DNA from: Alphaproteobacteria bacterium
GTDB lineage: Bacteria > Pseudomonadota > Alphaproteobacteria > Rhizobiales > Devosiaceae
Assembly (NCBI GenBank): GCA_018820005.1
Contig: JAHJOS010000511.1
Location: forward strand, 1-46,254
Direction: 5' to 3'
DNA length: 46,254 nt
Positions 25,410 to 42,399 of this stretch are shown one piece after another. Below the pieces are notes generated by a model, which had not been told where the DNA came from, searched no databases, and saw only the letters and a program-made list of their open reading frames with translations. Positions within the stretch are counted from its first letter, which is position 1. Every line of letters begins with the position of its first letter. Both the position numbers and the translations under genes were made by a program.

Positions 25410-25544
25410 GGCACACCTCCGAAGAGGCGACACAAAACGAAGCTGATGAATCATGGTGGGGCGCGGGCGTAAAAAGGAAGTATCGCATGTTGCTGGTGCT
25501 CCTTGGTTCGATTAAGGAGCCGCCTCTGCCGTTGCTACGCGGTA

Positions 25545-25627
25545 ATGGAGGCGGACCGCACGGGGGTAGCAAACCGGGAACCAAGGGAACCGGCCAGGCC
25601 GAAGCCTGCCCCGCACGGCCCGCCATA
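25545..25627 (-). ncRNA. C4-type antisense RNA
   Basis: Closing stem ATGGCGGGCCGTGCGGG/CCCGTGCGGTCCGCC..CAT, CAGGC-TTCG-GCCTG hairpin, loop CCTTGGTT and linker TTGCTAC; complementary targets on both flanks. Confidence 0.75.
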
Positions 25628-25680
25628 GCAAAGCAGTAGCTTGGTGCTAAGCACCAACTACCAGCTATGACGCTGCCGCG

Positions 25681-25731
25681 CCTTGGTTTGCCAAGTTGCT
25701 ACACCCGGTCGTGGGATTTACCACGACCGGG
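25681..25731 (-). promoter_or_regulatory. Upstream C4 target (a1/b1-like) with hairpin
   Basis: Minus-strand GTAGCAAC and AACCAAGG are complementary to the C4 loops; hairpin CCCGGTCGTGG/CCACGACCGGG at 25704-25731. Confidence 0.65.
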
Positions 25732-25890
25732 ACAGTCTAGCGCGGGGGGTATGGGTAGGGCAAACAGACTGCGGCGTAGTTGCGAGGGCGACTTTCGACC
25801 CGTAGCAGCCGTTCACGAGGGGCGGATTTTCCAAAAAAACCCAGTGAGCACCAGCTAGCAGTTATGAACTGATAATCGAGATGTCGTTAC

Positions 25891-26143: not shown

Positions 26144-26653
26144 TCAAAGGCTCGCCGACACCTGCCCGCAAATACACGAAAGAACGGGGGTTACACTTTG
26201 AGCTTTTCCGGACTCCAAAAGATCTTTTAGTTTGGATATAACAATACTTACAGAATCACCTTTATTTATCGGTGCTTCGCTGCTTTTGGCTGTATCTATC
26301 TCTGCGACTTGCGCATCCGCCATGGTTATAATGGCAATTTTTTCCTGATTCTTTCCCTTAACCAATATTTCGGTGGAGCCTATAATTTTTTCAAGCTCTT
26401 CTGGACATTCGTCAGTAGCATAAAAGTCGTTTGCAGGTACGAATTCGACCTTTTCGACTCCCTGGTCACTGAGGTGTTGACGCAGCTGGGTACTTGTCCA
26501 TCCTATTTGGACACCCTCTATTTCGCCGCTTTGCAAATCTTCTTGCTTGTAAAACAATTTCTTCGAAAATTTTCCCACCCCAGTTTCAGGGCAAGCTGCG
26601 GAGATGCTCGGCACTAATAGGGCGAGCAGGATTGCAATTTTATTTATCGCCAT
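26144..26653 (-). CDS. Putative immunity protein (exported) of orphan cassette 3
   Basis: Overlaps the end of the toxin tip; N-terminal signal peptide; AT-rich; 3' end possibly truncated. Confidence 0.65.
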
Positions 26654-27200
26654 GATTTTGGCCCCAGGCTCCAGGAATATTTGGTGCAGTCCCACCGGCA
26701 TTCTCGATTATGTTATCAGCCGCTGTATTGGAATTGTTGCCTGTTGGAGGAATTCGATAGGGCCCCTGAGAGTAGTTATTTCCCGAACCAGTTACTGCCT
26801 TATCAAAATCACTCTGAGTGGTTCCAGCAGGTGGCCAAATAATTCTGTTTGTATCATTAGCCCCGGGATTTTCAAATGCATTTCTGTCGTTATTGTAAGT
26901 ATCACTTTCGTTCTGGGTCATTGGCCCATTAGGTTTCACAGGGCCGGTGCCTCCGCCAGCTAGTGAGTACTGGCTATCAATCACTTTCTTCGAATTCCCG
27001 CACTTATCGAACTCCCAATGCCAAACGATAACGGCGCAATGAACTGGTTTAGCCATACCAGGAGGTAGCAATGAAAGCGGCCGACAAGTCATGGTGACTT
27101 CGAGTCCGTATTGGTCAATATATTTGAGTGGGTTCCCCATCGCATACCCGTAGGTATTCAGTCCCCCCTTAAGTCCAATCGGATCGCTTTCGACGTATCG
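26640..27200 (-). pseudogene. Orphan Rhs toxin tip, cassette 3
   Basis: [33 protein letters not shown], then a unique C-terminal domain with HC, Y..P..GNNSNT motifs; no proper start. Confidence 0.85.
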
Positions 27201-27312
27201 TCCGCCTACCTGGCGTCAAAGCTACAAACCCACACAGCCAAAGCCCCGCCCGCCTGCCTTTCAAGCCAGCACAAATCCACAAAGCAGCACGCTAACCAGC
27301 CACACCCCCCAA
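27175..27312 (-). repeat. Cassette leader repeat, copy A
   Basis: About 80% identical by eye alignment to 29202-29335; fused to the RYVESDPIG codons. Confidence 0.85.
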
Positions 27313-27334
27313 GGAAGGTGGACGAGCACCTTCC

Positions 27335-27616
27335 TCATGCAACCGCAAGCACAATGACGAAGCAAGACAGTGAAATGATGGAAGTTACTGCCGCTCGAAT
27401 GTAGGCCCTGACAATTTGACCCGCTTCAAGCGACATGCCTTTTGATTCCGGGTTCTTATACAGAATAAATTGCAAAACAACTGACGAGTAAAATTCATAC
27501 CCCTTTATGTTTGCAGAGCCGAGTGCGTCCTCTAATTCAGGCTTGATGCTTAAGCACTTAATCAGTCCGTATATCCCTGCACATAGCGCAGCGGTTAAAA
27601 TGGCACCTAAAATCAT
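27335..27616 (-). CDS. Putative membrane immunity protein of orphan cassette 2
   Basis: 93 aa with hydrophobic N- and C-terminal segments; starts 2 nt after the toxin stop. Confidence 0.65.
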   Translation of the reverse strand: MILGAILTAALCAGIYGLIKCLSIKPELEDALGSANIKGYEFYSSVVLQFILYKNPESKGMSLEAGQIVRAYIRAAVTSIISLSCFVIVLAVA

Positions 27617-27618
27617 GA

Positions 27619-28227
27619 TTACTCCAGTGGTATATTCAAGCCTACGCCAGATCCGGTGACTTTAGCACCGATAGCTGGTCCGACTCCTACACGGCCGGAA
27701 ACGCCATTTGTCCCTTGAGTGGAAGATACATCAACGCTGATTGGTCCATATATCGGCACAGATAATCCAGCAGACGTCCCTACTGTAGTCATTTTTGAAT
27801 TTACTGAGCCTGCCGATCCGGACACTCCAGCCGTTACGGAAACGCCTATGCCTATGCCCGGAGCAATCGAGAAACTCAGATTATTCTGGCTTGGTGAGAC
27901 ACTCAAATCGCCTGAAATAACTACCGGGACTGGCCCGAGTTGCCCCCAAACTCCAAGTTTAACGTCCACGTTAGATAAGCCTCGCGTCGAGCCTGGAAGC
28001 GCAGAAGCCAAGCCCGATGGGCAGTATCCTTCAGGATATGGGATGCCTCCGTTGCAGATCGTTTGCCCATACTCATCCTTCCAACATTTGCTTAAGCCAT
28101 AGGGATCTACAAAGATCAAAGGGTTTCCCCCAACATATCCATATGTGTTCAAGCCACCCGCCAGCCCGATCGGATCACTTTCGACATAGCGCCCCGTCTC
28201 GGGGTCGTAATCGCGGAAGTAGTTGTA
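27619..28227 (-). pseudogene. Orphan Rhs toxin tip, cassette 2
   Basis: [45 protein letters not shown], then a Gly/Val/Ser-rich beta-like domain. Confidence 0.85.
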
Positions 28228-28288
28228 AACTAATTCACATCAGCACCTCTGACTCCCGAGCTACCTGGTCGCATCGGCAGCACATTAC

Positions 28289-28312
28289 ACGCTGCGCTCA
28301 ACCCATCCTACG
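28289..28312 (-). repeat. Partial REP-like element
   Basis: Minus strand CGTAGGATGGGTTGAGCGCAGCG resembles GTAG-type pseudomonad REPs but lacks the second arm. Confidence 0.35.
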
Positions 28313-28314
28313 AG

Positions 28315-28731
28315 CTAATCAGCTAACTCAAACTCTAGGGAGTCAATTTGCTCTAATATAAATCCGTCGTCGTAATACAATTCCACATAAGGCTCTCCAC
28401 TCATCATTGTGCCCGCTGTGTCTATTGACTTGATTTTAAGCTTAGCTTCCCTTGAAATGGATATGCTGCGTGCGTGACAGTATATGTTTCCAGCACGCTG
28501 TGTTTTGCAGAACTGCTTTTGAGAATTGTCTGGGAGGATGTAATAGGCAGTTACCTCATCCCAGAACTCCTTCTCCCCAATCTTGAGCTCATCCAAAACC
28601 ATGACTTCAAACAGAGTTTTCTCTACGCAAGAAAACTCCGAGGGATCATCTGAGTTTTTCGAAAAGCACTCCACCCATAGTCTGTTGCTGTATGTGGCCC
28701 AGAGATTTATTTTTTTGGTTAGGACTAACAT
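28315..28731 (-). CDS. Putative cytoplasmic immunity protein of orphan cassette 1
   Basis: Acidic 138-aa protein starting 1 nt after the toxin stop. Confidence 0.7.
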   Translation of the reverse strand: MLVLTKKINLWATYSNRLWVECFSKNSDDPSEFSCVEKTLFEVMVLDELKIGEKEFWDEVTAYYILPDNSQKQFCKTQRAGNIYCHARSISISREAKLKIKSIDTAGTMMSGEPYVELYYDDGFILEQIDSLEFELAD

Positions 28732-28732
28732 A

Positions 28733-29227
28733 TTACTGCCCTCCGGTTCGCTGGGCGCCAGGGCGCGTTGCGTCAATTACATCCTGCCTTCTTACTCGCT
28801 CCGCATGGTTTGAAACGCCTGTTCTAACACTTCCATCAGGGAGAACATTGCGGAAGTTTGGGTGTGTGTGCTCTGCCATCCCAGCGTGAGGCTTTGAGGG
28901 GGGAGTATGGACCTCTTTGAATACGTCACCTTTCGCGTTGCGAACTTTAGTGATTCCTTGAGGCAGTGTCCCGCTAATAGTGCGAGGGACAGGACAGTAA
29001 GCACGTTCTCCTTGTGGGTTTAGACCGCCCCTGAGCCCCCCAATTGGCCCCACGCCTCCAGTTGGGTTACAGATCAACCCCTCAAAACCAGGCGTACAAA
29101 CATTGCCACCCAACCCATCATCAATCATCAATCCAAATGGATCGATAAAGTTAACGGGATTGCCTTCTACGTACCCGTAAGTGTTAAGCCCACCATTGAG
29201 CCCAATCGGATCACTTTCGACGTATCG
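28733..29227 (-). pseudogene. Orphan Rhs toxin tip, cassette 1 (His-rich, Ntox24-like putative nuclease)
   Basis: [33 protein letters not shown], then EVH..KPHAG..HTH..N..PDG. Confidence 0.8.
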
Positions 29228-29335
29228 TTCGCCTACGCGGCGTCGTAGCTACAATCCCACACAGCCCAAGCCCTACCTGCCTTCCACGCCCTCACAATCC
29301 AGCAAAGTGGCACTCTAACCAGCTACAACCCCCAA
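29202..29335 (-). repeat. Cassette leader repeat, copy B (element end downstream of the recombinase)
   Basis: Homologous to 27175-27312; contains GCTACAA twice. Confidence 0.85.
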
Positions 29336-29487: not shown

Positions 29488-30516
29488 CTAGAGGTCTTCT
29501 TCGCTCTCTGCGCGCAGGGCGGCGAGCAAGGCGGCTTTATCCTGCAGCTTCGCCGGGTGGGTGGCGGTGTGGATTTCCTGCAGCTTGCGGATCGATACGT
29601 GGGTGTAGATCTGCGTGCTGTTCAGGTCGGCGTGGCCGAGCATGGCCTGGATGTACCGAATGTCCGCGCCATTCTCCAGCATGTGGGTGGCCATGGCGTG
29701 CCTGAGCAAGTGGCAGGAACCGGGCACGTTGATGCCGGCATGGCGCAGGAAGCGCTTCACCTTGTCGCCCACCTTGTTGTCGCGGAAGGGTTCGCCGTAA
29801 TCGTTGAGGAACAGGCACTGCTCGTTGATGTTGAGCAGCAGCTGCGGGCGCACATTATCCAGGTACGCCTGCAACCAGTGCCCTGCTCGCGCACCGAGCG
29901 GCAACAGACGGTCTTTGCCGCCCTTGCCATAGCGGACGAACAGGGTCATCTGGGCCAGCGAAATATCCGACAGCTGCAGAGCGCACAGCTCAGAGCGACG
30001 CAGGCCGGCGCTGTAGAACACTTCCAGAATGGCCCGATCACGCACACCGTAGGGCGTGCTCACGTCCGGCTGCAGCATCAGCTGCTCGATCTCGTCCAGC
30101 GTCAGTACCAATGGCAGGGAAGCCGTGTGCCGGGGCACAAACAGCTCCGAGGCGGGGTTGTAGAGCAGGTGATTTTCTTGCGTCAGCCATTTGAAGAACT
30201 GCCTAACGCTGGTGATGTAGTGGTTGCGGGTGCTGGGTGACAGCGCTTCGCCATTGGCCTGGCGGTAGTAGTACAGGTGCCTCTGGTAGCTCTCCAGAAT
30301 CGGCTTGGTCACGCTCTGCGGCCGGTCGATACCGAGCCCATCGCACCACCCAACAAAGCGCCGAATGTCGCTCTCGCGTCGGTGCAGGGTGCTGGGAGAG
30401 TAATTACGCACCTGCATGGTTTCGTTGTAGCGCAGCAGGTAGCCATAAAACCCGGTGTGCTCGATGGCCACCGGCAGGCGTTTGACCTTGATCGTACGTT
30501 TACGTTTGAGCGCCAT
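29488..30516 (-). CDS. XerC/XerD-like tyrosine recombinase
   Basis: Catalytic R (GLRRSE), K (GKGGK), HLLRH, LGH and Y (TQIYT) intact; N-terminal core-binding domain. Confidence 0.95.
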   Translation of the reverse strand: MALKRKRTIKVKRLPVAIEHTGFYGYLLRYNETMQVRNYSPSTLHRRESDIRRFVGWCDGLGIDRPQSVTKPILESYQRHLYYYRQANGEALSPSTRNHYITSVRQFFKWLTQENHLLYNPASELFVPRHTASLPLVLTLDEIEQLMLQPDVSTPYGVRDRAILEVFYSAGLRRSELCALQLSDISLAQMTLFVRYGKGGKDRLLPLGARAGHWLQAYLDNVRPQLLLNINEQCLFLNDYGEPFRDNKVGDKVKRFLRHAGINVPGSCHLLRHAMATHMLENGADIRYIQAMLGHADLNSTQIYTHVSIRKLQEIHTATHPAKLQDKAALLAALRAESEEDL

Positions 30517-30518
30517 GA

Positions 30519-33500
30519 TCACAACGCCTGATAGGTACTTTTCGGCGCACTCGCCGGCCATTCGTGGAAAGCCCCGGCGTGGCTGGCATCGGCCCTATTT
30601 GCAGGTGCCGCGATGACCCCGTTATGGCCCCGCGTTGGCCCCGCGAAGTGGGCCACCAGCCCCCGCGAAGTGCTCGTCATAGGCATGGGTTCGGACGCCT
30701 GGGCGTCGTGTGCGGGGTGGCTGATCAACTGCTCGACCGCCAGCAAACCCATCAAAAAGCTCCCACCGTCTTCGCCTTCGCCGCCGTACAACAGCTCGTA
30801 CTCGAACGATTGGCCACGCCCGCCGCGATGGGTCAGCAAGTACTCCATGTTGACCAAGCGCTGCACATGCACGCGCACCTGGGTTTCACTCCAGCCGCAG
30901 AGTTGGCGCACTTGCCGGCGGCTAAAGCGGAAGTCACGCTGCTCAATGCCCTGCGCTTTGGCCTCGGCGGTGACACGTTGCTTGATCAGGGTGAGCAACT
31001 GCCGGGTTTGCGGCGGCAGCTCGTCCAGGGTCTTGCCCAGCACCTCATGGGCCAGCCGATTGGCCAGGGCAATGTCCTCGCGCGTGGCCTCGATGTATTC
31101 CACCGGCTGACCGTGATGGTTCAGGGTTTTCACCGGGCGCTGGTACTGGTGCAGCAAGGCGATGCTGTCGATCAGCGTCAGGTACTTTTCATGGTCGCGG
31201 CGGGTGCGGGTCTTGTCGGCGAGAAAGGTCAGCTGATCGGCGAAGGGGTTGATCACGATCAGCGGTTTCAGCAGGCGCTGGGCGTTGCGGTGCAGCTGCA
31301 GAATGCGTTGTTTCTCCAGCTTGGTCTCCAGCCCCTGCAGGGTGCGTTTCACCCGCTGGATTTGATGGATGGCCTCGGTCTGCTCGCGCGATTCGTTCAC
31401 TGTGAGCACCAGGCAGCGGTTCATCAATTCTTCGTCGATGTCGATGGCGGTGGTGGTGAGGAACAACATCACTGGGCCTTCCACGCAGTAATCGCGGGTT
31501 ACCAGCTGGCCGCTGTTGTCGTCTTTGCCGGTGGAGGCAATCCGTACTTCGCCCTCGCTCTGCAGCAGCTTTAGCGCGTAGCTGGCGGTGTGTGCGCCTT
31601 CCTCTTCGGTGATGGCGAGGATCTTGTGTTTCAGCCGCGTCTCGCCCATGTAGAACAGGCTCTGCCCGGTCATGGCCGAATACTGCACGCGCTCGTCTTC
31701 GGGCATAAAGGCCAGCACCGCGTCCATCAACGATGACTTGCCGGCCGCGCTGGAACTCTGAATCACCACCGCTAGCGGTCGCTCCAGTTTGCGGCTGACG
31801 CCGGCGAGATAACCCACCAGCTTGTTGGTTTCCTCACCCACCACGCCGGCTGCTGTGAAGTCCGCCAGGATGCGTTCGGGCAAGACTGGATCGCGCAGCA
31901 GGGCCAGGGCAGCGGCGCGGGCCTCGCCGTCCATGCTGTCGACCGGGGATGACTCCACCGGACGCTGCTGGCGGAGCTGTTCCTGCTCCAGGGCCAGCAA
32001 CAGCTTGCCCAGGTCTTTCTTGATCACCTCGCCACTGACGCCCAGCTCGACACTGGCCTGGTTGGTAAACACCTGGCGCTGCTTGCTGCTGTACAGGTCA
32101 AGTTTGTCCATGTGGTAGTGCTCGTCGTTTTGCGCCAGCAGCTGGATTTTCAGTTGGTCGGCGCTGGCGTTCTTGTCCAGCCCGCGCACGCGGTACAGCC
32201 TGTCGCCAAACTGGGTGTACAGGCCATCGTCGCGGGCCTCTAGGGCAGCACCGGGTGCGGGCAAGGTCGGCATCGGCGTCGCCTGCGGGTCGATGGGGTT
32301 GTCCGGCATGGCCACGTCCGGCTCAGGCTGCGCAGTGACGGCGGCGACTTTAGCGGCTAAAGAAAAATCATCCGCCGCGGTGCTGATAACCGGGGCCGGC
32401 CCGCTGCCGTTGCCCATCCACTCAGCCTGGCGAAGCAACGCCGCCAGCGCCTTCTGCGCCGGCTGCATCTGGCAGGCGTACTGGTTGGCGTCCATGCCCT
32501 GGGGGAACAACACCCGGAACGCTTCGATGCCGTGCTGATTGAGCTGCTGCGCTACATCCTGAGCGGCCCGGTCGCCGGCCTCGTCGCGGTCGTAGGCAAT
32601 CAGCACCCGCTTTACGCCGATGCTGACCAAAGCCTGCAGCAGCTCGGCGGTGAAGCCGTTCACACCAAAACTCGCGGTCACCTGGCGAAAGCCTGCGCGC
32701 CAGAAGCTCAGCGCATCGATCAGCGACTCGCACAGAATCACCTCGCGGGCCGAAGCCAGCGCCGCCAGGTTGAACACCCCGACATGCGGCCCCGGCAGGT
32801 AGCTGTGTTTCGGCGTGCCTTCGCGCAGGTTATCCAGCAGCTTGCGGCCGTACACCTCGCCAATCACCCCGCTGGCGTCCATGCACGGAATCACCAGCGA
32901 GCCGTTGAAGTGTTCGTGCCCGGACTCGCGGTAGATGCCGATCTGTTGCAGGCGTGCACGCAACTCGGCACCGGTTTTACGGTTCTTCTGCGGCAGGCGC
33001 AGGCCCAGCGTGCGGTTGGCGTAGCCCAGTTTGAAGTGGCTGATCAGCTCGGCATCGTCCAGCCCGCGTTTCTGCAGATAGGCCAGGGCCTCGGGCGACT
33101 GCAGCAGGGTCTGGTGATAAAACTCGATTACCTCCTGCAGCAGTTGCTGTTCGTCACCCTGGACGGACACGGGCAGCGGCAGGCTCGGCACCGTGGATTT
33201 GCGCTGCGGCTCGGCAGCATCAGCGGCTAAAGAAAAAACCTGTCCGGTGTCGTTGGCCAGCCATTCCACTGCCGGGCGAAAGGCCAGGCTGCGGGTCTTC
33301 ATCACCCAATCGATTACCGAGCCGGCAGCACCACAACCGAAGCAGTGAAACAGGTTCGACTGCGGGCTGATCACGCACGACGGGGTTTTGTCGGCATGGA
33401 ACGGGCAGCACAGCGCAAAATCCTTGCCCTGCTTGGTCAGCACATGGCCCTGGCTCTCCACCAGCCGCAGCAGGGACACCTCGGCCTTGATCCGCTCGAT

Positions 33501-33524
33501 CACGTCATCAGCGATACGCGCCAT
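30519..33524 (-). CDS. CHC2 zinc finger-TOPRIM primase fused to a P-loop ATPase/helicase
   Basis: CPFH..CFGC zinc finger, CESLIDA and YDRD TOPRIM motifs, SSAAGKS Walker A; start MARIADD. Confidence 0.9.
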   Translation of the reverse strand: MARIADDVIERIKAEVSLLRLVESQGHVLTKQGKDFALCCPFHADKTPSCVISPQSNLFHCFGCGAAGSVIDWVMKTRSLAFRPAVEWLANDTGQVFSLAADAAEPQRKSTVPSLPLPVSVQGDEQQLLQEVIEFYHQTLLQSPEALAYLQKRGLDDAELISHFKLGYANRTLGLRLPQKNRKTGAELRARLQQIGIYRESGHEHFNGSLVIPCMDASGVIGEVYGRKLLDNLREGTPKHSYLPGPHVGVFNLAALASAREVILCESLIDALSFWRAGFRQVTASFGVNGFTAELLQALVSIGVKRVLIAYDRDEAGDRAAQDVAQQLNQHGIEAFRVLFPQGMDANQYACQMQPAQKALAALLRQAEWMGNGSGPAPVISTAADDFSLAAKVAAVTAQPEPDVAMPDNPIDPQATPMPTLPAPGAALEARDDGLYTQFGDRLYRVRGLDKNASADQLKIQLLAQNDEHYHMDKLDLYSSKQRQVFTNQASVELGVSGEVIKKDLGKLLLALEQEQLRQQRPVESSPVDSMDGEARAAALALLRDPVLPERILADFTAAGVVGEETNKLVGYLAGVSRKLERPLAVVIQSSSAAGKSSLMDAVLAFMPEDERVQYSAMTGQSLFYMGETRLKHKILAITEEEGAHTASYALKLLQSEGEVRIASTGKDDNSGQLVTRDYCVEGPVMLFLTTTAIDIDEELMNRCLVLTVNESREQTEAIHQIQRVKRTLQGLETKLEKQRILQLHRNAQRLLKPLIVINPFADQLTFLADKTRTRRDHEKYLTLIDSIALLHQYQRPVKTLNHHGQPVEYIEATREDIALANRLAHEVLGKTLDELPPQTRQLLTLIKQRVTAEAKAQGIEQRDFRFSRRQVRQLCGWSETQVRVHVQRLVNMEYLLTHRGGRGQSFEYELLYGGEGEDGGSFLMGLLAVEQLISHPAHDAQASEPMPMTSTSRGLVAHFAGPTRGHNGVIAAPANRADASHAGAFHEWPASAPKSTYQAL

Positions 33525-33639: not shown

Positions 33640-34029
33640 ATGCCATCAGCACTGCAGCGGATGAGCGCCATGACACCCGAAGACAAAGACTTCTATACAG
33701 ACTTGGGCCTGCGTATCGCCCAGGCCCGCAAAGCCCAAAACATCACTCAGCAGCAGATGGCCACGCTGCTCGGCATTTCCCAGCAAACCGTGGCGCATTA
33801 CGAAGTGGGTCGCTTGCGGATTTCCGTGGCCACGCTGCGGCAACTGGCCGAGGTGCTTAATTTCTCGGTCGATGAACTGGTGTACGGCATGGCGACTAAA
33901 GAAAAAGGCCGGCGCGGCCCCGACTCCAGGCTGCAACAGCAAATCGAGAAAGTTCGCCTGCTGCCCCGCACTAAGCAGCAGTTTGTGATGGACATGCTCG
34001 ATACGGTTATTCAGCAAACGGCGACATAA
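33640..34029 (+). CDS. XRE-family HTH repressor
   Basis: RIAQARKAQNITQQQMA..LGISQQTVAHYEVG HTH, KRGP-like tail; divergent from the primase; true start may be 33661 or 33670. Confidence 0.9.
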   Translation: MPSALQRMSAMTPEDKDFYTDLGLRIAQARKAQNITQQQMATLLGISQQTVAHYEVGRLRISVATLRQLAEVLNFSVDELVYGMATKEKGRRGPDSRLQQQIEKVRLLPRTKQQFVMDMLDTVIQQTAT

Positions 34030-34078: not shown

Positions 34079-34324
34079 AGGGCGTTTATTTTTTAATTAA
34101 AAAGAACAGGCCCGCCGAAAATAACCAGATAAAGCCCTGCCAGATTCGCCCCCACCACCAAGATCGATCCAGGGTTAAGCCACGGCCTGGCGTTGCTTTT
34201 CTCTCTCCCCCGCAGCTCTGCTGCTGCCTGCCGACGACCTGCCAACCATCCTCAACAGCACCCCAAAAGCGTGGCTGATTGACGTCACCCTGAGCGCCAA
34301 TCGAAGCCGCCTGGTCAAAAAGTG

Positions 34325-34405
34325 GGCTGTAGCCTCGTGTGACTACAATCACCCCAGCATTTACGGGGCCTCCAGAGCATGTTGTAGCCGCGTGAGGCTA
34401 CAGCC
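34325..34405. repeat. Inverted pair of TGTAG-N10-CTACA palindromic boxes
   Basis: 34328-34347 and 34383-34402 are each palindromic and are inverted copies of one another. Confidence 0.75.
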
Positions 34406-34427
34406 GTTTTTTCACAAATAGACAATA

Positions 34428-34457
34428 AGCCAACATAATCAATGACTTATGCGCACC
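34428..34457 (-). other. dif/cer-like Xer recombination site
   Basis: Minus strand GGTGCGCATAA-GTCATTGA-TTATGTTGGCT versus E. coli dif GGTGCGCATAA-TGTATA-TTATGTTAAAT. Confidence 0.75.
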
Positions 34458-34861: not shown

Positions 34862-35089
34862 TTAGTTGCCTTTTGCCAACGTATACGGCCGCATGGACTC
34901 ATGATCTTTATAAACAAACTGTTCGCAAATATCGACAAGTCCACCCATTGACTGCGCGACGCAAAGCTTCACCTCTAAAAACTCCTCTTCGCTTGTGTTC
35001 TCCTTAATATCTCTAAGAAGTTTTCCAAGAATGCTTATGCACTCTTGGGAGGCATTAAAAATAATTTCTGCTGATTTTTTATCCATCAC
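34862..35089 (-). CDS. Putative cognate immunity protein of the full-length Rhs
   Basis: 75-aa AT-rich helical ORF overlapping the Rhs stop codon. Confidence 0.75.
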   Translation of the reverse strand: MMDKKSAEIIFNASQECISILGKLLRDIKENTSEEEFLEVKLCVAQSMGGLVDICEQFVYKDHESMRPYTLAKGN

Positions 35090-37767
35090 TTAACTCCCAA
35101 GCAACCGCGAGAATCTAAACAATCTGAGTAGCACTTCTGAAAATTCATAGACTGTAGGTCTGTATCGGGAAGACCAGCGCTACATAGCGCCGCACACTCG
35201 GTTCTTGCGCGCTTGCAGCGGTCTGGATCGTCCTCATCTGGGGTGCAAGCCTCAACTGCTTTAGTAATTAGCGGCTGCAACCAAGGGTTGATATACCTGT
35301 CAGTTAAAATGAAGCTACCAACACCGACAGCCCCCACCGCCGCTGCCGCACAGGCACTACCACCAGTTGCAGCGCAGATAGAGCCAGCGCTTGGCAATGT
35401 TACCTTTAATACCTCGCCCACCGTGGCTACCTGCAGCCCCATCGGATCGGTGTAGCGCACCGGGTTGCCATGGACATACCCGTAGGTATTCAGACCACCA
35501 GCCAACCCAATCGGATCGCTTTCGACGTAGCGCCCCGTCTCGGGGTCATAATCGCGGAAGTAGTTGTAATGCAGCCCGCTTTCGTCGTCGTAGTACTGAC
35601 CGGGGAACCGGAGGTTGATGGTGGCAGTTCCATCAGCCGCACCGACGCCGAAGGCATCGGATTTCCATCGCCAGACTTCATCACCGGACTGGTTGGTGGC
35701 TAGCCTTGGGGTGTTGAGGTGGTCGGCATGCAGATAGAACGCGTTGCTGCTGGCGATGCCACCCTCAGCATCGTAGGTCAGGGTGATGCCACCTAAAGGC
35801 AGGCTGTCCAGCCACAGAAAGAACTGGCTGCTAAGCTTGGCGCCAGTGGGGCTGTACCGGGTTTCGCCAAGGAGCTGGCCGTTCGGGCCGTAAAGAAAGG
35901 TTGTTGTCGCTGTGCCGGTGATCTTGTTGGTTCGCTGGCCCAATGCGTTGTAGCGGTATTGCGCGATCACATTGCTGCCGATGTTCACCTGAGCCAATCG
36001 GCCCTGAGCATCGTACTCAAAGTTTCGGTTATTGCTGTATTGCGTCAGGCTGCCAGTGGCATCGGTGGTTACGGCCAGTCCGTCGATGCTTACAAGCCGA
36101 TTGCTGTCGCTCGCATAGCTGAGGTCGGTGACCACGCTGCCCATGGGCTGGCCTTCGCTCAGGCCGATGAGCGCTTTGCTGGTCCGGTTGCCCACCGCGT
36201 CGTAGCCATACTGTAAGCGCTGGTTGCCTTCATCTTCACGGATCAGCCGATCGAGCGCGTCATAACCGTAGAGCAGATCACCGAACAGGCCGCTCTCCAG
36301 GCTCTGGATATTGCTGTTGGCGTCGTAGCCATAATTGGCCTGCCAAGGTCCGACGCTTTGCTGGGTGAGTCGATAGTCCTGATCATAGGTGCGTGAAAGA
36401 TTGATGCCGTTGGCCCAGGTAAGACTCTTCAGCGGCCCGAACGGCAGATAGCTCAGGTCGCTGGCAAAGGCAGCAGGCTGTTCATCGATAACGATGTCGA
36501 CCTCTCCAACCTGCCCGGCAGCATTGCGTTGGTATTGCACGGCAAAGCCTGCCGGGTAATCGATGCGCGTGAGCTGACCAGCGCCATCGTAGCTGTACTG
36601 CAGCGTGTCATAGATATCGCTACCCACCACCTCGAGTGAGCGAAGCTGCTGCACCAGGTTGCCGCGTGCGTCGTAGCGATAGCCAAGCACTCCACTGGCA
36701 TCTTGCACGGTGGTCAGCCGGCCAACCCCGTGATTGCCGTCGGCGGTCATGTCGTAGTGGTACTGAACGTTGAGCGCCGGGTTGGCGGGGTACGTTTTAC
36801 TGGTCAGACGATTCAGGGCGTCGTAGCTGTAGCTCGTGACCACGCCGCGGGCGTCGGTCTTGCGGATCACGTTGCCGGCCGCGTCATGTATAAATGTGGC
36901 CGTGCCGCTGTCTGGACTGACTAGTTGAGTAAGATTACCTACCCCATCGTACCGGTACTGGGTGGTAACGCCTCTCGGGTCGCTTACCTGGGTGAGGTTA
37001 TCCTGAGCATCATAACCAAGGGCAGTAACGCCATTGAGCGGGTCGGTGCTGGTGACCAAGCGATCCAGTGCATCGTAGCTGTTGGTGGTGCTGTGTTGCT
37101 TGGGGGTGGTACCAACCGCGAGATTATCGTTCAGGTCGTAGCCGTACTGCCTGGTCTGGCCTTGTGCACCGACGGCGCGCAGCAGGCGTCCGAGCTCGTC
37201 ATATACCCAGGTCTGCTGCTGGGTCAGTGCACCGGTGGCATCATTGAGACGCTGAGCGGTGCGGTTGCCCATGAGGTCGTAGTCATATTCAACCTTCTCG
37301 CCCAAACTGTTGGTAACCGCTTTCAGACGACGGGCACCGTCCCAGGTGTACTGCAGCCAGCTCCCGTCACCGCGGGTCACCTTAGCGATCTGCCCAATGG
37401 CGTCGTGCTCGAAGCTCGTGCTGCTGCCGGCAGTGCTTGTGGAACTCAGCCAGCCCTGGGGCGTGTAGGTCAGGGTGGTCGTCACACCGTTGGCATCTAT
37501 CAGGCTCTGCGGGTTGCCGTAGGTGTCGAAGTTCGAGAGCTGTGTGACATGGCCAAGGGCATTGGCTACCTGTGTCAGGTGGCCTTGGGCGTCATAGGTG
37601 TAGGTGGTGACATCTGACACGTCGCTGCGAGGGCCGTCGGCCGTCTCGATCAGTCCGAGGCTGTTGTAGGTGTAGCTCCAGCTGCGCTCAAGCGCTTGGA
37701 CGCTTGGCACACCCAGTGCCGTCGCGAGCGTTAGCGCAAGTAGACTTATGCGATGCGATGATTTCAT
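35086..37767 (-). CDS. Rhs protein, C-terminal half (own signal peptide, YD repeats, Rhs core, Cys-rich toxin tip)
   Basis: MKSSHRISLLALTLATALGVPSVQA signal peptide; YD repeats; [35 protein letters not shown]. Confidence 0.93.
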   Translation of the reverse strand: MKSSHRISLLALTLATALGVPSVQALERSWSYTYNSLGLIETADGPRSDVSDVTTYTYDAQGHLTQVANALGHVTQLSNFDTYGNPQSLIDANGVTTTLTYTPQGWLSSTSTAGSSTSFEHDAIGQIAKVTRGDGSWLQYTWDGARRLKAVTNSLGEKVEYDYDLMGNRTAQRLNDATGALTQQQTWVYDELGRLLRAVGAQGQTRQYGYDLNDNLAVGTTPKQHSTTNSYDALDRLVTSTDPLNGVTALGYDAQDNLTQVSDPRGVTTQYRYDGVGNLTQLVSPDSGTATFIHDAAGNVIRKTDARGVVTSYSYDALNRLTSKTYPANPALNVQYHYDMTADGNHGVGRLTTVQDASGVLGYRYDARGNLVQQLRSLEVVGSDIYDTLQYSYDGAGQLTRIDYPAGFAVQYQRNAAGQVGEVDIVIDEQPAAFASDLSYLPFGPLKSLTWANGINLSRTYDQDYRLTQQSVGPWQANYGYDANSNIQSLESGLFGDLLYGYDALDRLIREDEGNQRLQYGYDAVGNRTSKALIGLSEGQPMGSVVTDLSYASDSNRLVSIDGLAVTTDATGSLTQYSNNRNFEYDAQGRLAQVNIGSNVIAQYRYNALGQRTNKITGTATTTFLYGPNGQLLGETRYSPTGAKLSSQFFLWLDSLPLGGITLTYDAEGGIASSNAFYLHADHLNTPRLATNQSGDEVWRWKSDAFGVGAADGTATINLRFPGQYYDDESGLHYNYFRDYDPETGRYVESDPIGLAGGLNTYGYVHGNPVRYTDPMGLQVATVGEVLKVTLPSAGSICAATGGSACAAAAVGAVGVGSFILTDRYINPWLQPLITKAVEACTPDEDDPDRCKRARTECAALCSAGLPDTDLQSMNFQKCYSDCLDSRGCLGVK

Positions 37768-37784
37768 TGGTCAGTTCCTTCTGA

Positions 37785-39419
37785 TCAGCGTTCGGTAAGG
37801 GTCTGGCTAAGCGGATTTCCGTGTGCGTCGTAATTGAACTGCACGATGCGCTCGGGCTCGGTGATGGTGACGGGTCTGAAGAGCGTTGGGTGCCACTCGG
37901 TGATGATCGTCCGGGCCTGTGGCGTACCGGCTGCTTCGGTCCGACTGATCTCTAGGCCGCGATCGTTGTAGATGAATGTCGTCTGATTACCCTTGTTGTC
38001 GGTGCGGGTCTTGATTAAACCGCGGCTGTCATAGGTGAACGTGGAATTGCTGCTAGGACAGTTGGCCGATGCTGCTCCTGAGAGCGAGGTGATGCGCTTG
38101 GCGCCCGCGATGGTTTGGAAGCTATAGGTGGCTTTCTTGCCGAGTGGATTGGTCAGTGTTGTCGAGTTGCTACCGTAGGCGAACTGGTAGCGGTCGGCAC
38201 CACCGGCATGCTCGCTCTTGGTAGCACGTCCCTGTGCATCGTAAGTCCAGGTGGCGTAACGCACACCGCGCTCGTCGGTAATGCCGGTCAGCCAGCCGCC
38301 TTCACGTGCGTCTTCGTAATGGTAGGTGCGAGAAAGGGCCTGCCCATTCTGGGTTCGCGTCGCCTTGGTCAGACGGCCGGCCGTACTGTAGGTGTAGCTC
38401 ACCTGCAGGTCGTCAACCATCAGCGTGGCCAACCGTTGAGCTGCGTTGAACGTCAGCGTCATCGCATGGCCGAGTGAGTCAGTGACCACGATGGCGTTGG
38501 CGCTGTACGAAAGAATCTCGTATGTGCCGTTCGCACGGTCGATACGGGTCAGTTGTCCTGCGCTGTCGAAATGCAGGTGCTCGTTTCGCGGGGAGTCGTA
38601 GCGCCAACCTTGAGTCGTCTTTTCAAGACGCCCTAGCTCTTTGGGTGATGCGGCCACGGTAGTACCGCTTACGCTGAACAGGCTTTGGCGTCCATCGGCG
38701 TCAATGAGTAGCGCCTTGGTGGGAGAAAGCTTGAGTCGCGCGGCGTAAGTATGCGTCCAACTGGTCGTTCTGCTGTTGTAGTAGCGTATGAAGCGCATTT
38801 CGCTACCGGAACGACCGGAATAGTCTATTTCAGTCTGGAATTTGTTTCCGTAAGCCACGTCGACCGGGTTACCAGCGCTCAGGCTTGGGGAACCCTGTCC
38901 AGCAAGTAAGGGTGGCGCTGACGGTACAGGACAGGCACCAGGCAGGTCCGGTGCACCAACCCCCGGAACGTCGGGGCAGAGCAGCTCCGCGGGTCGGTTG
39001 TAAAAGACCGGGCCGGCAAAGACTCCATAATGCGTTTGCTTGGCAACGGCGAAGTTTCTCGCGGAGACGCCATCGACCGAGCCGGTGAAGTTGTCGTGGA
39101 GCAGGATTGCGTGTGTCTTGCAGTCGTTGGTGAACACCCGCTTCATGTTTGCATTGCTCGATTTCAGCGTTTCGAGCATCTGGTCCGGTGTGTACCACGC
39201 GCTACTATCAAGCCACTTGATCACCTTGCCTCCGGAACATTGCAAGTTCGCGATCTGGTACAGGTACTGACCCGAGCCATCTGGTGGCTGAGATGCGAAG
39301 ACTTCTGTTCCGAAATAGCTAACGCCACCTGTCGTGCAGCTAGCGGCGGCGAGGGCGGATTGGTTTAGAAATGCGGTGCTAACAAGGGCGAGAGCAAGCG
39401 TGCTGGAGAAACGATCCAT
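37785..39419 (-). CDS. Rhs protein, N-terminal half (signal peptide, DUF6531-like domain, YD repeats)
   Basis: Signal peptide ending ALA; GNPVDVAYGNK..FIRYYNS..WTHTY; YD repeats; no Rhs core. Confidence 0.88.
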   Translation of the reverse strand: MDRFSSTLALALVSTAFLNQSALAAASCTTGGVSYFGTEVFASQPPDGSGQYLYQIANLQCSGGKVIKWLDSSAWYTPDQMLETLKSSNANMKRVFTNDCKTHAILLHDNFTGSVDGVSARNFAVAKQTHYGVFAGPVFYNRPAELLCPDVPGVGAPDLPGACPVPSAPPLLAGQGSPSLSAGNPVDVAYGNKFQTEIDYSGRSGSEMRFIRYYNSRTTSWTHTYAARLKLSPTKALLIDADGRQSLFSVSGTTVAASPKELGRLEKTTQGWRYDSPRNEHLHFDSAGQLTRIDRANGTYEILSYSANAIVVTDSLGHAMTLTFNAAQRLATLMVDDLQVSYTYSTAGRLTKATRTQNGQALSRTYHYEDAREGGWLTGITDERGVRYATWTYDAQGRATKSEHAGGADRYQFAYGSNSTTLTNPLGKKATYSFQTIAGAKRITSLSGAASANCPSSNSTFTYDSRGLIKTRTDNKGNQTTFIYNDRGLEISRTEAAGTPQARTIITEWHPTLFRPVTITEPERIVQFNYDAHGNPLSQTLTER

Positions 39420-39534
39420 GTTCCAAAATCCTGCGTCAGGGATGATGCAGGTAGGCTAGATTCGGGTTCGCAAAGTGTCAGCCGCTGCTTTGTGGCCGAG
39501 TCCGCAAAACTGACGACCGCTTGTCGGGTTTGTT

Positions 39535-40131
39535 CTAAAGCGGGTTTTTGTTAATGCGAACTAGAGGCTCTAAACGTAGCTCCGTTGCACTTTCGGAGCT
39601 CGTAGGGCGGAGTTTCTTCAGATAAAAATCCGTAAGGTAGGCATACCGTACGACCTGTCCTACTGGCTTAGTTGGAGCTTTCATTGCGTCGGGAAAATAA
39701 AGTGGATCAAGCGATCCGTCGCGCGACAGGACGACATAGCTGGGTTGCACCTCTTCCAGAATCGCACCAGACACGATCTGGTCACCTAGTTTGAAGAGGC
39801 GAGGGGGACGGCCCGAAACCATAATGATGGCCGAAGATCGTTCGCTCATCGGGTGCACGAAGCTACCCACTAATGTCATCGGAAGCGGAGATCGTTCGTG
39901 AACAGGCTGTGTCTGCTGTCGATGTTCGCCGAACAGATTTTCCCGATACTTGACAGGCGCTTTCGTGGGCTCAAGCACTGCCTGTTCGCGGGCAGGCTCT
40001 TTGAGCAGAACCTCGCTAAGTTGCTGCCATTGTCTGTAAATATTCACGCTCACTCCCATCGCTACGACAAGCGACACCGCCCACGGCAGGGCGCGATGTC
40101 TGAGGATCGTGAGAATCAAGCGAGCTTTCAT
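39535..40131 (-). CDS. Type II secretion GspC/XcpP-like protein
   Basis: N-terminal TM helix, then LPMTLVG..SSAII..FKLGDQI..ILEEVQPSYVVLSRDG..LYF (HR domain); start could be 40164. Confidence 0.75.
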   Translation of the reverse strand: MKARLILTILRHRALPWAVSLVVAMGVSVNIYRQWQQLSEVLLKEPAREQAVLEPTKAPVKYRENLFGEHRQQTQPVHERSPLPMTLVGSFVHPMSERSSAIIMVSGRPPRLFKLGDQIVSGAILEEVQPSYVVLSRDGSLDPLYFPDAMKAPTKPVGQVVRYAYLTDFYLKKLRPTSSESATELRLEPLVRINKNPL

Positions 40132-40513
40132 GTGGGGCTGCAATCCAAATACTGCACAGCTCATTTTTCACGATTCTGAGAAAAGGTCGAACAGTTTGCG
40201 GCCCAGACTTGATGTGGTGCGCAAAGCAGTGGCGGCATAGAGCCGTGCTGCCCTTTCTGCTTTCCTACCAGAAAAAATTTGCGAACACGTCGTGGAGCGA
40301 CCAGGCGCGGATGGTACCGGCGCGGCAGGGCGTCGCTGACCAAGCGTAGGGCAAGAGGGCTGTATCGCTTTGGAACAGCCCGACTCGCGTCCAGACGAAT
40401 ACCCCGCATTACGGTCGCCGAGCCAACTGCGTCAGCCGACCTCAGGGAGGGCATGATGGACGCCCGAGGGGACGAGACGGCCGTCGGGAGACGCCCTTGC
40501 GCTTCACGCGCAT

Positions 40514-42379
40514 TCAACTAGGCCCAGCCACCAACCCAGCCCTGAAATGCTCAGCCGTCTCCGCATCCGTGCAGTACAGGTAGCATCCCTTCATCCCGCG
40601 CGTCATGAGCGTACGGTAGGTATTCTTGATGATCAGATCCGTCTCTTGTCTAGCCAGATCCGGATGCGTCTTCATGAGCTTCTTATAGCCGCGGATCGAC
40701 CGGTCCTGTTTGTCACGCCGATCTGGAGAGGTAATGACCTCGCCGTTGCGCACGATCAGGTCGGGCCCGATGATCACGCCGATGTAATCGACCTCAAGCC
40801 CCTGGCAGGTATGGATGCACCCGACCTGCTCGATGGATTCCTCGGCGATGATCCACAGGCTTCCGTCCTGGCTCAGGTTCCACTGCCGGCGGTAGTCACC
40901 AATGACGATGTCGTCGGCCAGCGGATCCTTCTTGCTGCGCCACGGCCAGCAGTAGCCCGCCACCACCCGTGCCTTGTTCTCCCCGTTACGCGCTTCGATC
41001 GCTTCATGCAGCGCCTCAGGCGTATCGAACACCCGAAAGTCGTACTCGCTTGCATCGAGCCGCTCGTTGGCCGTCAGCCTGATGTCGAGCACTTGATCGA
41101 GCCAAGCGAGATACCCATCCGAGCCGCTGCAACGAAACTGTGAAGCCAGGTTGTACTCCTCAACCACCGCACCCTTGGCCTCGGCAAACGCCCGGATCGC
41201 CTGCTTGCTACCAATGTCGCTCAGGGTGACGCGCTGGTCTTCATCGATGAAGAAGACCGTGCACTTGGCGGCACCAATGAGCTCCTTGATTTGGTTGTCA
41301 CCGAGGTTGGCGTACAGGCCGCTCTTCTCGTTAAGGCGGTGGGCCTCGTCGACGATGAGCATGTCGAAGATATTCGGGTCGGCATCCACAAACGCACCGG
41401 AGCCGGTGAACATGTGCGAGAAGCGGGTGCGCGTCATCGAGCCGACCAGCTTCGTCTCATAGACCTTGCGGGGCGCGGCGTTCTTGGACACGTATTTGCC
41501 CACCAGTCCCAAGGAGGTGAGATGCACCAGCAGGTTGATGGCCAGCACCGTCTTGCCGGTCCCAGGCCCGCCTTCGACGATGACCACCCGCGACTGGGCG
41601 GAGGAGGCTGCCTTGGCTGCGGCAATGGCCGCCTCGTAGACCTCTTTCTGATCATCGATCAGCACGAACTCAGGCTTCTCGGCCAGCAACCCTTTAAGTG
41701 AATCCGCCAGTGCCTTGGACGGCCTGATCTTGCCGTTGGCAAGCTCGTACAGCACCGCCTTGTCATCACCGTACTTGATGTACTTCTTGATGAAGGCGCG
41801 CAGCTGCTCGAGCTCATCCTTGCCCTTGAAAAAGAGCGGCGCCTTGTCGATGTAAGGCTGGTAATGGGCCGCGTCGATGACGCCGTCACGCACGTAGTTG
41901 TGCAGGTACGCGCATGGCCTGACCGAGATGCTCTGGTCGTATACCGCCTCGTTGAAACCCTCCGGCAAAGAGGCGTAGGACCAGGCCTGATAGGACGGAT
42001 GAACTGTCTCCCTCAAACCCTTGCCCAGGGCGGTGACAACGATCGCATCCTTGGCCGTGACCTTGGCTGTACTCCATTGCTTGAGCTCGACCAGCACGGC
42101 GTTCTTGCCGCCGGCATCGTCCCGGCCGGTCAAGGTAAAGTCGATGCGCTTGGACGACTGCGGGATGTGGAGCTCGATGGCAAGCCCGGTGTCGCCGGGC
42201 AACCCCTCGTCTCGCAGCACCTTGGCCATGTAGCCGAGCGATCCCTTCCAGGAGTCGATCTCCGAACGCCCGACCCGCTTGCCGGTGCGAGCGGTGAAGT
42301 GGGCGAGGATCACGTCCTCGATGTCGTCATTGTCGGTGTCGTGCAGGAACTGCTGCTTGGTTGCTTCGTAAACGATCAC
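40514..42379 (-). CDS. DUF2075-like nuclease-helicase
   Basis: N-terminal E..RID..VELKQW (PD-(D/E)xK-like), GGPGTGKT, IVDEAH, QFRC, CIHTCQGLE and YRTLMTRG motifs. Confidence 0.85.
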   Translation of the reverse strand: MIVYEATKQQFLHDTDNDDIEDVILAHFTARTGKRVGRSEIDSWKGSLGYMAKVLRDEGLPGDTGLAIELHIPQSSKRIDFTLTGRDDAGGKNAVLVELKQWSTAKVTAKDAIVVTALGKGLRETVHPSYQAWSYASLPEGFNEAVYDQSISVRPCAYLHNYVRDGVIDAAHYQPYIDKAPLFFKGKDELEQLRAFIKKYIKYGDDKAVLYELANGKIRPSKALADSLKGLLAEKPEFVLIDDQKEVYEAAIAAAKAASSAQSRVVIVEGGPGTGKTVLAINLLVHLTSLGLVGKYVSKNAAPRKVYETKLVGSMTRTRFSHMFTGSGAFVDADPNIFDMLIVDEAHRLNEKSGLYANLGDNQIKELIGAAKCTVFFIDEDQRVTLSDIGSKQAIRAFAEAKGAVVEEYNLASQFRCSGSDGYLAWLDQVLDIRLTANERLDASEYDFRVFDTPEALHEAIEARNGENKARVVAGYCWPWRSKKDPLADDIVIGDYRRQWNLSQDGSLWIIAEESIEQVGCIHTCQGLEVDYIGVIIGPDLIVRNGEVITSPDRRDKQDRSIRGYKKLMKTHPDLARQETDLIIKNTYRTLMTRGMKGCYLYCTDAETAEHFRAGLVAGPS

Positions 42380-42399
42380 GCGGTCTTCCTTGGCCGAGT

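What the first reader, a model, noticed from the sequence alone, without database searches (positions are those of the whole stretch)
27175..29335. Duplicated non-coding leader marks two successive insertion events
About 110 bp of non-coding DNA plus the start of the Rhs core occurs at 29202-29335 (right after the recombinase) and again, diverged, at 27175-27312. Both join the core at the same codon. Cassette 2 lacks this leader and keeps a longer core. Copy A looks like the relic end of an earlier element and a candidate att site.
Basis: partly seen in the sequence, partly recalled or inferred. Interest (0 to 1): 0.7.

Follow-up and report, generated by a model that had tools for sequence, protein, structure and literature searches.

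The report
Mobile element that swaps toxin tips
The repeated 115-base stretch is the conserved end of a small mobile DNA element that sits, at an exact codon, inside a bacterial Rhs toxin gene, and the element likely uses its own recombinase to insert there, giving the toxin a new tip and pushing the old tips downstream.

Summary
The repeat is real: two ~115-nt non-coding copies, 79% identical, each abutting the Tyr codon of R|YVESDPIG (29224 and 27197), and found nowhere else in the (79% complete) genome. Copy B is the right end of a 6,305-bp unit (tip 1, immunity, XRE, primase, PRK01287 tyrosine recombinase, leader) lying inside the Rhs core. Relatives across many taxa share layout and leader. 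Two E. coli filled/empty pairs show that the tip behind the leader is the host's displaced tip and that the break is base-precise, with no homology to its left. One genome has the same leader joined to two non-homologous Tyr-x-x-x-Asp-Pro sites. So the leader is most likely the attachment-site arm of an integrative element that swaps Rhs (and CdiA) tips in frame; copy A is likely the end of an earlier unit that lost its body. Two corrections: other lineages join at other core codons or at CdiA VENN, and units can carry several tips, so 'two successive events here' is likely, not shown. Recombinase activity and free circles are untested. Ten literature searches found no description; one unread 2026 paper may overlap.

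The parts
35086..37767 (-). Full-length Rhs gene (893 aa), target of the element; host part 37767-35530, current tip from 35529
   Evidence: RHS repeats and Rhs-associated core domain; junction coordinate
35086..35529 (-). Tip 1: core end YVESDPIG plus variable C-terminal domain, now in frame with Rhs; inferred cargo of the element (its first base is the inferred left junction)
   Evidence: GC 49.6% with its immunity gene against 59% for the core; cargo status inferred from E. coli pairs
34862..35089 (-). Small gene overlapping the Rhs stop; predicted immunity protein 1
   Evidence: position only; no family hit above cut-off
34428..34457 (-). dif/cer-like site (XerC-type arm, 8-bp spacer, XerD-type arm; arm consensus recalled)
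   Evidence: 1 match in the window, 0 in 100 shuffles; such sites in 38 of 85 recombinase loci, 77 sites against 3-5 in shuffles
33640..34029 (+). XRE-family repressor, divergent from the primase
   Evidence: HTH_3 E 1e-16; RstR-like model 68 bits, below its cut-off of 80
30519..33524 (-). CHC2 zinc finger-Toprim primase with a C-terminal P-loop-like region (1001 aa); predicted replication protein
   Evidence: P-loop hit weak (E 0.017)
29488..30519 (-). Tyrosine recombinase of the PRK01287 subfamily, catalytic residues R174 K199 H270 R273 H296 Y305 intact
   Evidence: NF002331 405.8 bits, cut-off 371; residues
29225..29345 (-). Leader copy B: non-coding right end of the element, inferred attR arm; first box at 29338-29331
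28733..29224 (-). Tip 2, orphan beginning at the Tyr of RYVESDPIG; inferred displaced tip
   Evidence: the same domain ends Rhs proteins of 935-947 aa elsewhere
28315..28776 (-). Predicted immunity protein 2
   Evidence: position only
27619..28230 (-). Cassette 2 / tip 3: leaderless orphan keeping 13 extra core codons that match the resident Rhs in 38 of 39 bases
27335..27616 (-). Predicted immunity protein 3
   Evidence: position only
27198..27312 (-). Leader copy A: decayed leader with no recombinase, primase or XRE upstream; inferred relic attR
26640..27197 (-). Tip 4, orphan beginning at the same Tyr codon; inferred oldest tip
   Evidence: 44-60% identical tips on long Rhs proteins elsewhere
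26144..26701 (-). Predicted immunity protein 4
   Evidence: position only

Best explanation
The repeat is the conserved end of a 6.3-kb element (toxin tip, immunity gene, repressor, primase, tyrosine recombinase, leader) that lies inside the Rhs core, and it likely serves as the attachment-site arm through which the element's recombinase inserts a presumed circular form at one codon, fusing the element's tip to the Rhs and leaving the old tip behind the leader. Steps: (1) shown in relatives: the DNA between the two junctions is present or absent as a block with a base-precise right break; (2) shown: the tip behind the leader is the tip that the empty allele carries on its full-length Rhs; (3) inferred: the circle joins leader to its own tip, and the recombinase exchanges strands just 5' of a Tyr codon, in this lineage one with GAYCC 12 bases further on; (4) inferred: the left junction rebuilds a target, so insertion can repeat, giving tandem arrays; (5) inferred: bodies are later deleted, leaving leader-plus-tip relics such as copy A. 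History of this locus, inferred: tip 4 first, displaced by an earlier unit ending in copy A, then tip 2 displaced by the present element; cassette 2 is either a passenger of the earlier unit or a third event at the YNY codon.
For: E. coli filled/empty pairs: 7,928 bp and 16,714 bp (two units) inserted; the empty allele matches the sequence behind the leader for 2,026 and 1,354 identical bases starting exactly at the Asp codon of DPIG, with 0 matching bases to the left, and matches the left flank for 399 and 1,269 bases. L015: one leader sequence is joined to YLTSDPIG and to the host's YKYIDPDG, and the host gene reads NNNP|YLTSDPIG, so no extended homology was used. L088: a 94% identical sibling has the same leader at the same codon before a fifth, different core end. 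64 leader copies in 45 of 97 sequences, 0 on the opposite strand, 56 within 2.6 kb behind a recombinase. 27 of 41 loci with at least 2 kb after the recombinase have an Rhs-core piece there by tblastn, 5 more by eye, none on the opposite strand. Tandem units of 5.8-8.7 kb. Primase in 69 of 75 genome loci. Leader boxes at about -115, -83, -50, -15. Junction class clusters on the recombinase tree, 12 changes against 19.4 shuffled. CdiA case joins at VENN. Patchy distribution: 0 of 108 other genus genomes, 3 of 401 in the order, 56 of 5,426 E. coli.
Against: No recombination or binding assay. No empty allele or circle seen for this very element; read-level evidence was not obtained. Circular records (L004, L005) and contigs with terminal overlap (L039) could be collapsed tandem repeats; L005 closes inside the primase region, not at a junction. 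Filled/empty pairs do not tell insertion from precise excision, and come from a recombinase only 39% identical to the window's. Leader and recombinase do not strictly co-evolve: L048 and L063 leaders fit the L021-type profile although their recombinases fall in another clade. The junction codon varies widely (at least eight core positions) and I found no single attB consensus or classical inverted-repeat core. 9 of the 41 loci showed no Rhs-core piece after the recombinase. No transfer genes are present, so the route between cells is unexplained.
Confidence: 0.8

Rival explanations
1. Same element and mechanism, different history: copy A and tips 2-4 arrived together, or were shuffled inside a multi-tip unit, rather than marking successive insertions into this chromosome.
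For: Single units carry two or three tips in L015, L018 and L082; L039 is one unit with two leaders and one body.
Against: Tip 4 lies outside the right end of the present element, where the host's own DNA lies in the E. coli pairs; cassette 2 carries 38 of 39 bases of the resident core; A has decayed while B is 95% identical to the sibling's leader.
Confidence: 0.25
2. The leader is mainly an expression device (promoter, RNA, or decayed coding linker that gives the orphan tip a signal peptide), and its place beside the junction is incidental to recombination.
For: 10 of 42 leaders have no in-frame stop; in L003 and L027 a reading frame with a hydrophobic, signal-peptide-like start runs through the leader into the tip.
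Against: 32 of 42, including A and B, have in-frame stops; spacing and boxes are conserved while the encoded peptide is not; no Rfam match over the leader; no fold better than shuffles.
Confidence: 0.1
3. Host XerCD acting on the dif-like sites moves the unit, and the element's own recombinase is secondary.
For: dif-like sites in 38 of 85 loci, often as an inverted pair between recombinase and leader; one in the window. The body-less repeat in L039 begins at such a site. A 2026 preprint cites 'Xer-dependent recombination systems' beside Xenorhabdus/Photorhabdus poly-immunity arrays.
Against: The mapped breaks lie at the leader/core junction, which has no dif-like sequence; the window's only site is 5.2 kb from junction B and 1.1 kb from the left junction; 47 of 85 loci show no site with my pattern. 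More likely these sites resolve multimers or drop and gain cargo.
Confidence: 0.07
4. Tips were displaced by RecA-type homologous recombination between Rhs cores (Jackson et al. 2009 model); the leader and mobile genes only hitch-hike.
For: Synonymous identity is raised in the 8 codons right of the junction (4-7 of 8, against 2-7 of 16-18 further on); long-core orphans exist (159 codons in L082) and probably arise this way.
Against: Zero homology left of the break in two filled/empty pairs; non-homologous target in L015; only about 33 core codons follow the junction and they are largely saturated at silent sites; the model predicts variable core lengths, not a fixed codon.
Confidence: 0.05

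Closest known systems
Rhs C-terminal displacement through episomal circles (Jackson et al. 2009, PMC2935791; passages read)
   Same: Same outcome: new tip on the full gene, old tips shunted downstream; circles predicted.
   Different: [quoted passage not shown]
Integrative elements and prophages that insert into a gene and rebuild it with a carried 3' fragment (recalled, e.g. tRNA-targeting integrases)
   Same: Tyrosine recombinase, insertion inside a gene, gene kept in frame, displaced 3' piece left at the other end, tandem accretion.
   Different: The carried fragment is a different functional domain with its immunity gene, so insertion changes the product; shared core is at most a few bases.
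Rhs-associated integrases of Snodgrassella and Gilliamella (Steele et al. 2017, PMC5727410; passages read)
   Same: Integrase genes beside Rhs arrays, suggested to help toxin transfer.
   Different: No element boundaries, primase, att site or junction rule in the passages I saw; whether those integrases are PRK01287 was not tested.
rAID arrays of Bacteroidales (described in PMC12247911, passages read) and XerC/D beside polyimmunity loci (Zhang et al. 2012, PMC3482391, passage read)
   Same: Tyrosine recombinase beside arrays of immunity genes; conserved intergenic motifs.
   Different: Those arrays hold orphan immunity genes; here whole tip-immunity pairs are exchanged on a toxin gene by a unit with its own primase.
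Xer-dependent systems beside Rhs poly-immunity arrays (Martinkus et al. 2026, Curr Biol 36:176; not seen, only cited in bioRxiv 10.64898/2026.07.13.738213)
   Same: Rhs arrays with Xer-related features; the dif-like sites and the 'XerC' label of this recombinase may be what that paper means.
   Different: Cannot be judged without the text; it may anticipate part of this finding.

Membership tests
PRK01287 / NF002331 tyrosine recombinase subfamily | Score above the curated cut-off and intact R-K-H-R-H-Y catalytic set | tested here: met
   405.8 bits against 371; residues
Chromosomal XerC / XerD | Score above the XerC or XerD equivalog cut-off | tested here: not met
   247 against 335 and 258 against 330; the genome has other recombinases at about 31% identity
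Elements integrating through Xer at dif (IMEX type) | dif-like sequence at the element's junctions | tested here: not met
   the only dif-like site in the window is internal, 34457-34428
Integron | IntI-family integrase | tested here: not met
   128 against cut-off 265
Integron | attC-like single-strand hairpin at the cassette end | tested here: not met
   11 folds (5 leaders on both strands and the Rhs target), z from +0.41 to -1.30; no Rfam match over the leader
rAID | Recombinase followed by an array of orphan immunity genes without toxins | tested here: not met
   each small gene follows an Rhs tip; tips 2 and 4 occur on full Rhs proteins
Integrative element that rebuilds its target gene | Block present or absent at one site, target gene in frame at the left junction | tested here: met
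   in E. coli relatives and L015; for the window's own element only the in-frame left junction is shown
Integrative element that rebuilds its target gene | Free circular intermediate with a joined attP | tested here: inconclusive
   circular records and overlapping contigs exist but may be collapsed tandem repeats
Integrative element that rebuilds its target gene | Recombinase-dependent strand exchange at the site | not testable with these tools
   needs an assay
Prophage or phage satellite | Presence among phage records; capsid, packaging or helper-exploiting genes | tested here: not met
   no primase match at 1e-30 in 50,697 phage records; best IMG/VR recombinase 31% identical; no such genes between the junctions. 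An unrecognised satellite lifestyle is not excluded.
Homologous-recombination C-terminal displacement | Extended core homology on both sides of a variable break | tested here: not met

The most novel reading that the evidence does not exclude
A widespread, undescribed family of self-replicating integrative elements is the episomal pool of toxin tips predicted in 2009: each inserts in frame into Rhs or CdiA genes, retargets readily between codons of the core, and leaves every displaced tip behind a reusable site, so that its recombinase can also load old tips (here tip 2 or, through copy A, tip 4) back onto the toxin.
Probability: 0.45. Interest if true: 0.92.

Novelty: new variant of a known kind. 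Interest (0 to 1): 0.8.

Why it matters
How polymorphic toxins acquire new tips without losing the old immunity genes has been explained by hypothetical circles and homologous recombination. This locus and its relatives point to a dedicated enzyme, a defined ~115-bp site and an exact junction, which makes the question testable with a two-plasmid reporter assay. The recombinase family is large (6,873 of 8,000 scored candidates at E 1e-40, though that count may include ordinary Xer proteins), is routinely labelled XerC, and occurs in E. coli. A recombinase that fuses domains in frame with almost no homology would also be of interest as a tool.

Tried and rejected
Genome-wide repeat: rejected. 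attC-like hairpin or known RNA family: rejected. Phage origin: no support. Empty allele in close kin: this Rhs was not found at 1e-100 in 108 genus genomes, and only two distant matches (35-36%) among 242 family genomes. Naming the tips' activities: no Pfam hit for the four tips; the protein atlas could not take the sequences. A single codon rule ('always RYxxSDPIG'): rejected. A single attB consensus across lineages: not found; TAY-N9-GAYCC fits 15 of 42 junctions only. The tree has one wrong label (L064 entered as YNY, shown to join at FTGEQ) and gives L015 one label though it has two junctions; it was not rebuilt. Papers opened that added nothing (passages only): PMC13183296, PMC10210955, PMC11606950, bioRxiv 10.1101/2021.01.28.428661; PMC3150448 proposes recombination between conserved VENN sequences without a dedicated enzyme.

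Full report
1. Observation. The two copies are real. Against the whole assembly, copy B matches copy A at 80.5% over 169 nt (E 1.5e-36); the only other strong hits are the Rhs core itself and cassette 2, through the coding part. The non-coding parts alone match in 92 of 116 columns, score 109 against at most 27 in 1000 shuffles. Read on the minus strand, both end at the Tyr codon of RYVESDPIG (29224, 27197); cassette 2 starts 13 codons earlier at YNY (28227) with no leader. The assembly holds one Rhs locus, one such recombinase and one such primase and is 78.8% complete.

2. Anatomy. On the minus strand: Rhs N-part (37785-39419), Rhs (35086-37767) with tip 1, a small gene, an 830-bp gap, a divergent XRE gene, a CHC2-Toprim primase, a tyrosine recombinase, leader B, tip 2, small gene, cassette 2 (tip 3), small gene, leader A, tip 4, small gene. 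The recombinase passes the PRK01287 cut-off and fails the XerC, XerD and integron-integrase cut-offs; its six catalytic residues are intact. From the Tyr codon in the full Rhs (35529) to that behind leader B (29224) is 6,305 bp. Tips and small genes are 48-50% GC against 59-63% for core and body. Tips 2 and 4 end long Rhs proteins elsewhere; no tip has a Pfam family. Immunity function of the small genes is inferred from position.

3. Relatives. The recombinase is missing from 108 other genomes of the genus and present in 3 of 401 genomes of the order, own included, yet 582 of 604 pattern matches in the genome collection encode relatives; 75 loci were kept. 69 of the 75 have the primase. Of 41 loci with at least 2 kb after the recombinase, 27 have an Rhs-core piece there on the same strand by tblastn and none on the other; five more have short core pieces seen by eye (L014, L029, L031, L076, L081), two have a box followed by a frame with no core (L027, L042), and seven showed nothing I could place. 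Many loci are tandem units of 5.8-8.7 kb. Plasmid records show the same trio behind cdiA and an FG-GAP-repeat protein.

4. The leader is a family feature. A profile seeded with six leaders and never given copy A found 21 hits in 15 of 81 sequences, all on the recombinase strand, copy A among them. With 37 hand-picked leaders as queries, 64 copies turned up in 45 of 97 sequences, none on the opposite strand: 56 lie within 2.6 kb behind a recombinase, 5 have no recombinase upstream in the fetched DNA, and 3 are body-less like copy A (the window, L039, L064; one L039 site is counted at both contig ends). In 30 leaders a GCGTCGGG-like box lies at -111 to -118 in 25, at -82/-83 in 6, at -48 to -51 in 11 and at -14 to -16 in 13; the first and last positions are partly circular, because the matrix came from first boxes and I set junctions by the last box. 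Copy A begins inside the first box, which is degraded and shifted by a 4-nt insertion. There is no hairpin and no Rfam family.

5. Filled and empty sites. 56 of 5,426 E. coli genomes carry a related element (recombinase 39% identical to the window's). I searched with the tips that follow the leader and fetched four hits chosen by annotation: three were empty alleles, one was filled. NZ_AP045173.1 against NZ_AP027254.1 differs by a 7,928-bp block; NZ_CM192141.1 against NZ_AP024521.1 by 16,714 bp (two units). In both, the tip behind the last leader is the tip on the full Rhs of the empty strain; identity starts exactly at the Asp codon of DPIG, with zero matching bases to the left, and the left flank is the host's. 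The direction (insertion or precise excision) cannot be read from a pair.

6. What defines the target. In L015, two identical units sit in an Rhs of another family: the host gene reads NNNP|YLTSDPIG and the last leader is followed by the host's YKYIDPDG, while the first leader is followed by YLTSDPIG. The two targets share only TAY-N9-GATCCG. Class clusters on the recombinase tree (12 changes, shuffled mean 19.4, 0 of 200 as low, minimum 8) but switches among enzymes 65-70% identical (one label was wrong, see Tried and rejected). A 94% identical sibling, L088, has the same leader at the same codon before a core end unlike the window's four. Among the window's four tips, silent identity is 4-7 of 8 in the first eight codons after the junction and 2-7 of 16-18 beyond, which fits a right-arm binding site or short homology. 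13 of 14 short leaderless orphans that I listed begin at the same codon as their locus's leader junction (hand-picked, long-core orphans left out, two rows from one genome share their upstream DNA); the fourteenth, like cassette 2, begins at the YNY codon. How leaderless orphans arise is unexplained.

7. dif-like sites. The gap after immunity gene 1 holds a dif/cer-like site (34457-34428; 0 in 100 shuffles). Such sites occur in 38 of 85 recombinase loci, 77 against 3-5 by chance, usually as an inverted pair between recombinase and leader. In L039 the body-less repeat begins at one. They are not at the junctions. I infer host XerCD resolves multimers or removes and adds cargo; none is left before copy A, so its body was lost some other way.

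8. Mechanism. Best reading (0.8): a small integrative element whose circle joins leader to its own tip; the recombinase inserts it just 5' of a Tyr codon in the Rhs core, so the gene gains the new tip and the old tip-immunity pair stays downstream. The left junction rebuilds a target and the right junction looks like the circle's own site, which would allow tandem build-up and, if copy A still works, return of tip 4. Shown: block structure, precise break, displaced tip (in relatives), fixed codon, linkage. Inferred: enzyme, circle, replication, order of events here. Against: no assay, ambiguous circles (L005 closes in the primase region), imperfect leader-enzyme co-evolution, no universal attB, no transfer genes.

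9. Literature. Ten full-text searches returned no description of this element. [quoted passage not shown] Poole 2011 (passages) proposes recombination between VENN sequences. Zhang 2012 (passage) notes XerC/D beside polyimmunity loci; Steele 2017 (passages) notes Rhs-associated integrases; rAID is described in PMC12247911 (passages). A 2026 preprint (passages and reference list) cites Martinkus 2026 for Xer-dependent systems beside Rhs poly-immunity arrays; I could not see that paper. No supplements were read, and most subscription journals are not searched, so prior description cannot be excluded.

10. Verdict. Observation confirmed; interpretation partly supported and extended. New variant of a known kind (integrative element that rebuilds its target gene, here swapping a toxin domain). 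Interest 0.8.

Noticed in passing
window 25544-25740 (-): C4 antisense RNA (77.7 bits, gathering 45) and its a1/b1 target just below threshold, at the far end of the tip array; looks like a remnant of a P4-type immunity region (recalled).
   Followed up: no
window 35086-40164 (-): The Rhs is split into two genes (544 and 893 aa), both with signal-peptide-like starts by eye, behind a GspC-like gene: export is probably Sec/type II rather than type VI.
   Followed up: no
L003 21741-22604; L027 about 4600-5100: A reading frame with a hydrophobic signal-like start runs through the leader in frame with the tip, so in some lineages the displaced or circular tip may be exported on its own.
   Followed up: partly
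L015 3199 and 18262: Chimeric Rhs core made by insertion at a non-homologous Tyr codon; the same tip also sits downstream behind a 14-codon core piece like cassette 2.
   Followed up: yes
window 33231, 32361, 34043 (-): Repeated short polar word (TTTAGCCGCT-like) in the primase gene and behind the XRE gene, resembling the signal of earlier finding e1-5250645.
   Followed up: partly
window 34318-34412: 31-bp inverted repeat (77% complementary) next to the dif-like site; function unknown.
   Followed up: no
window 40514-42819 (-): Schlafen-group-3 helicase gene beside a MazG-like gene, upstream of the Rhs island; possibly a defence pair.
   Followed up: no
L003, L004, L026, L027, L082 (between or beside XRE, recombinase and leader): Related elements carry variable toxin-antitoxin genes (SymE, DinJ/RelE-ParE and others); the window's element has none recognised.
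   Followed up: no
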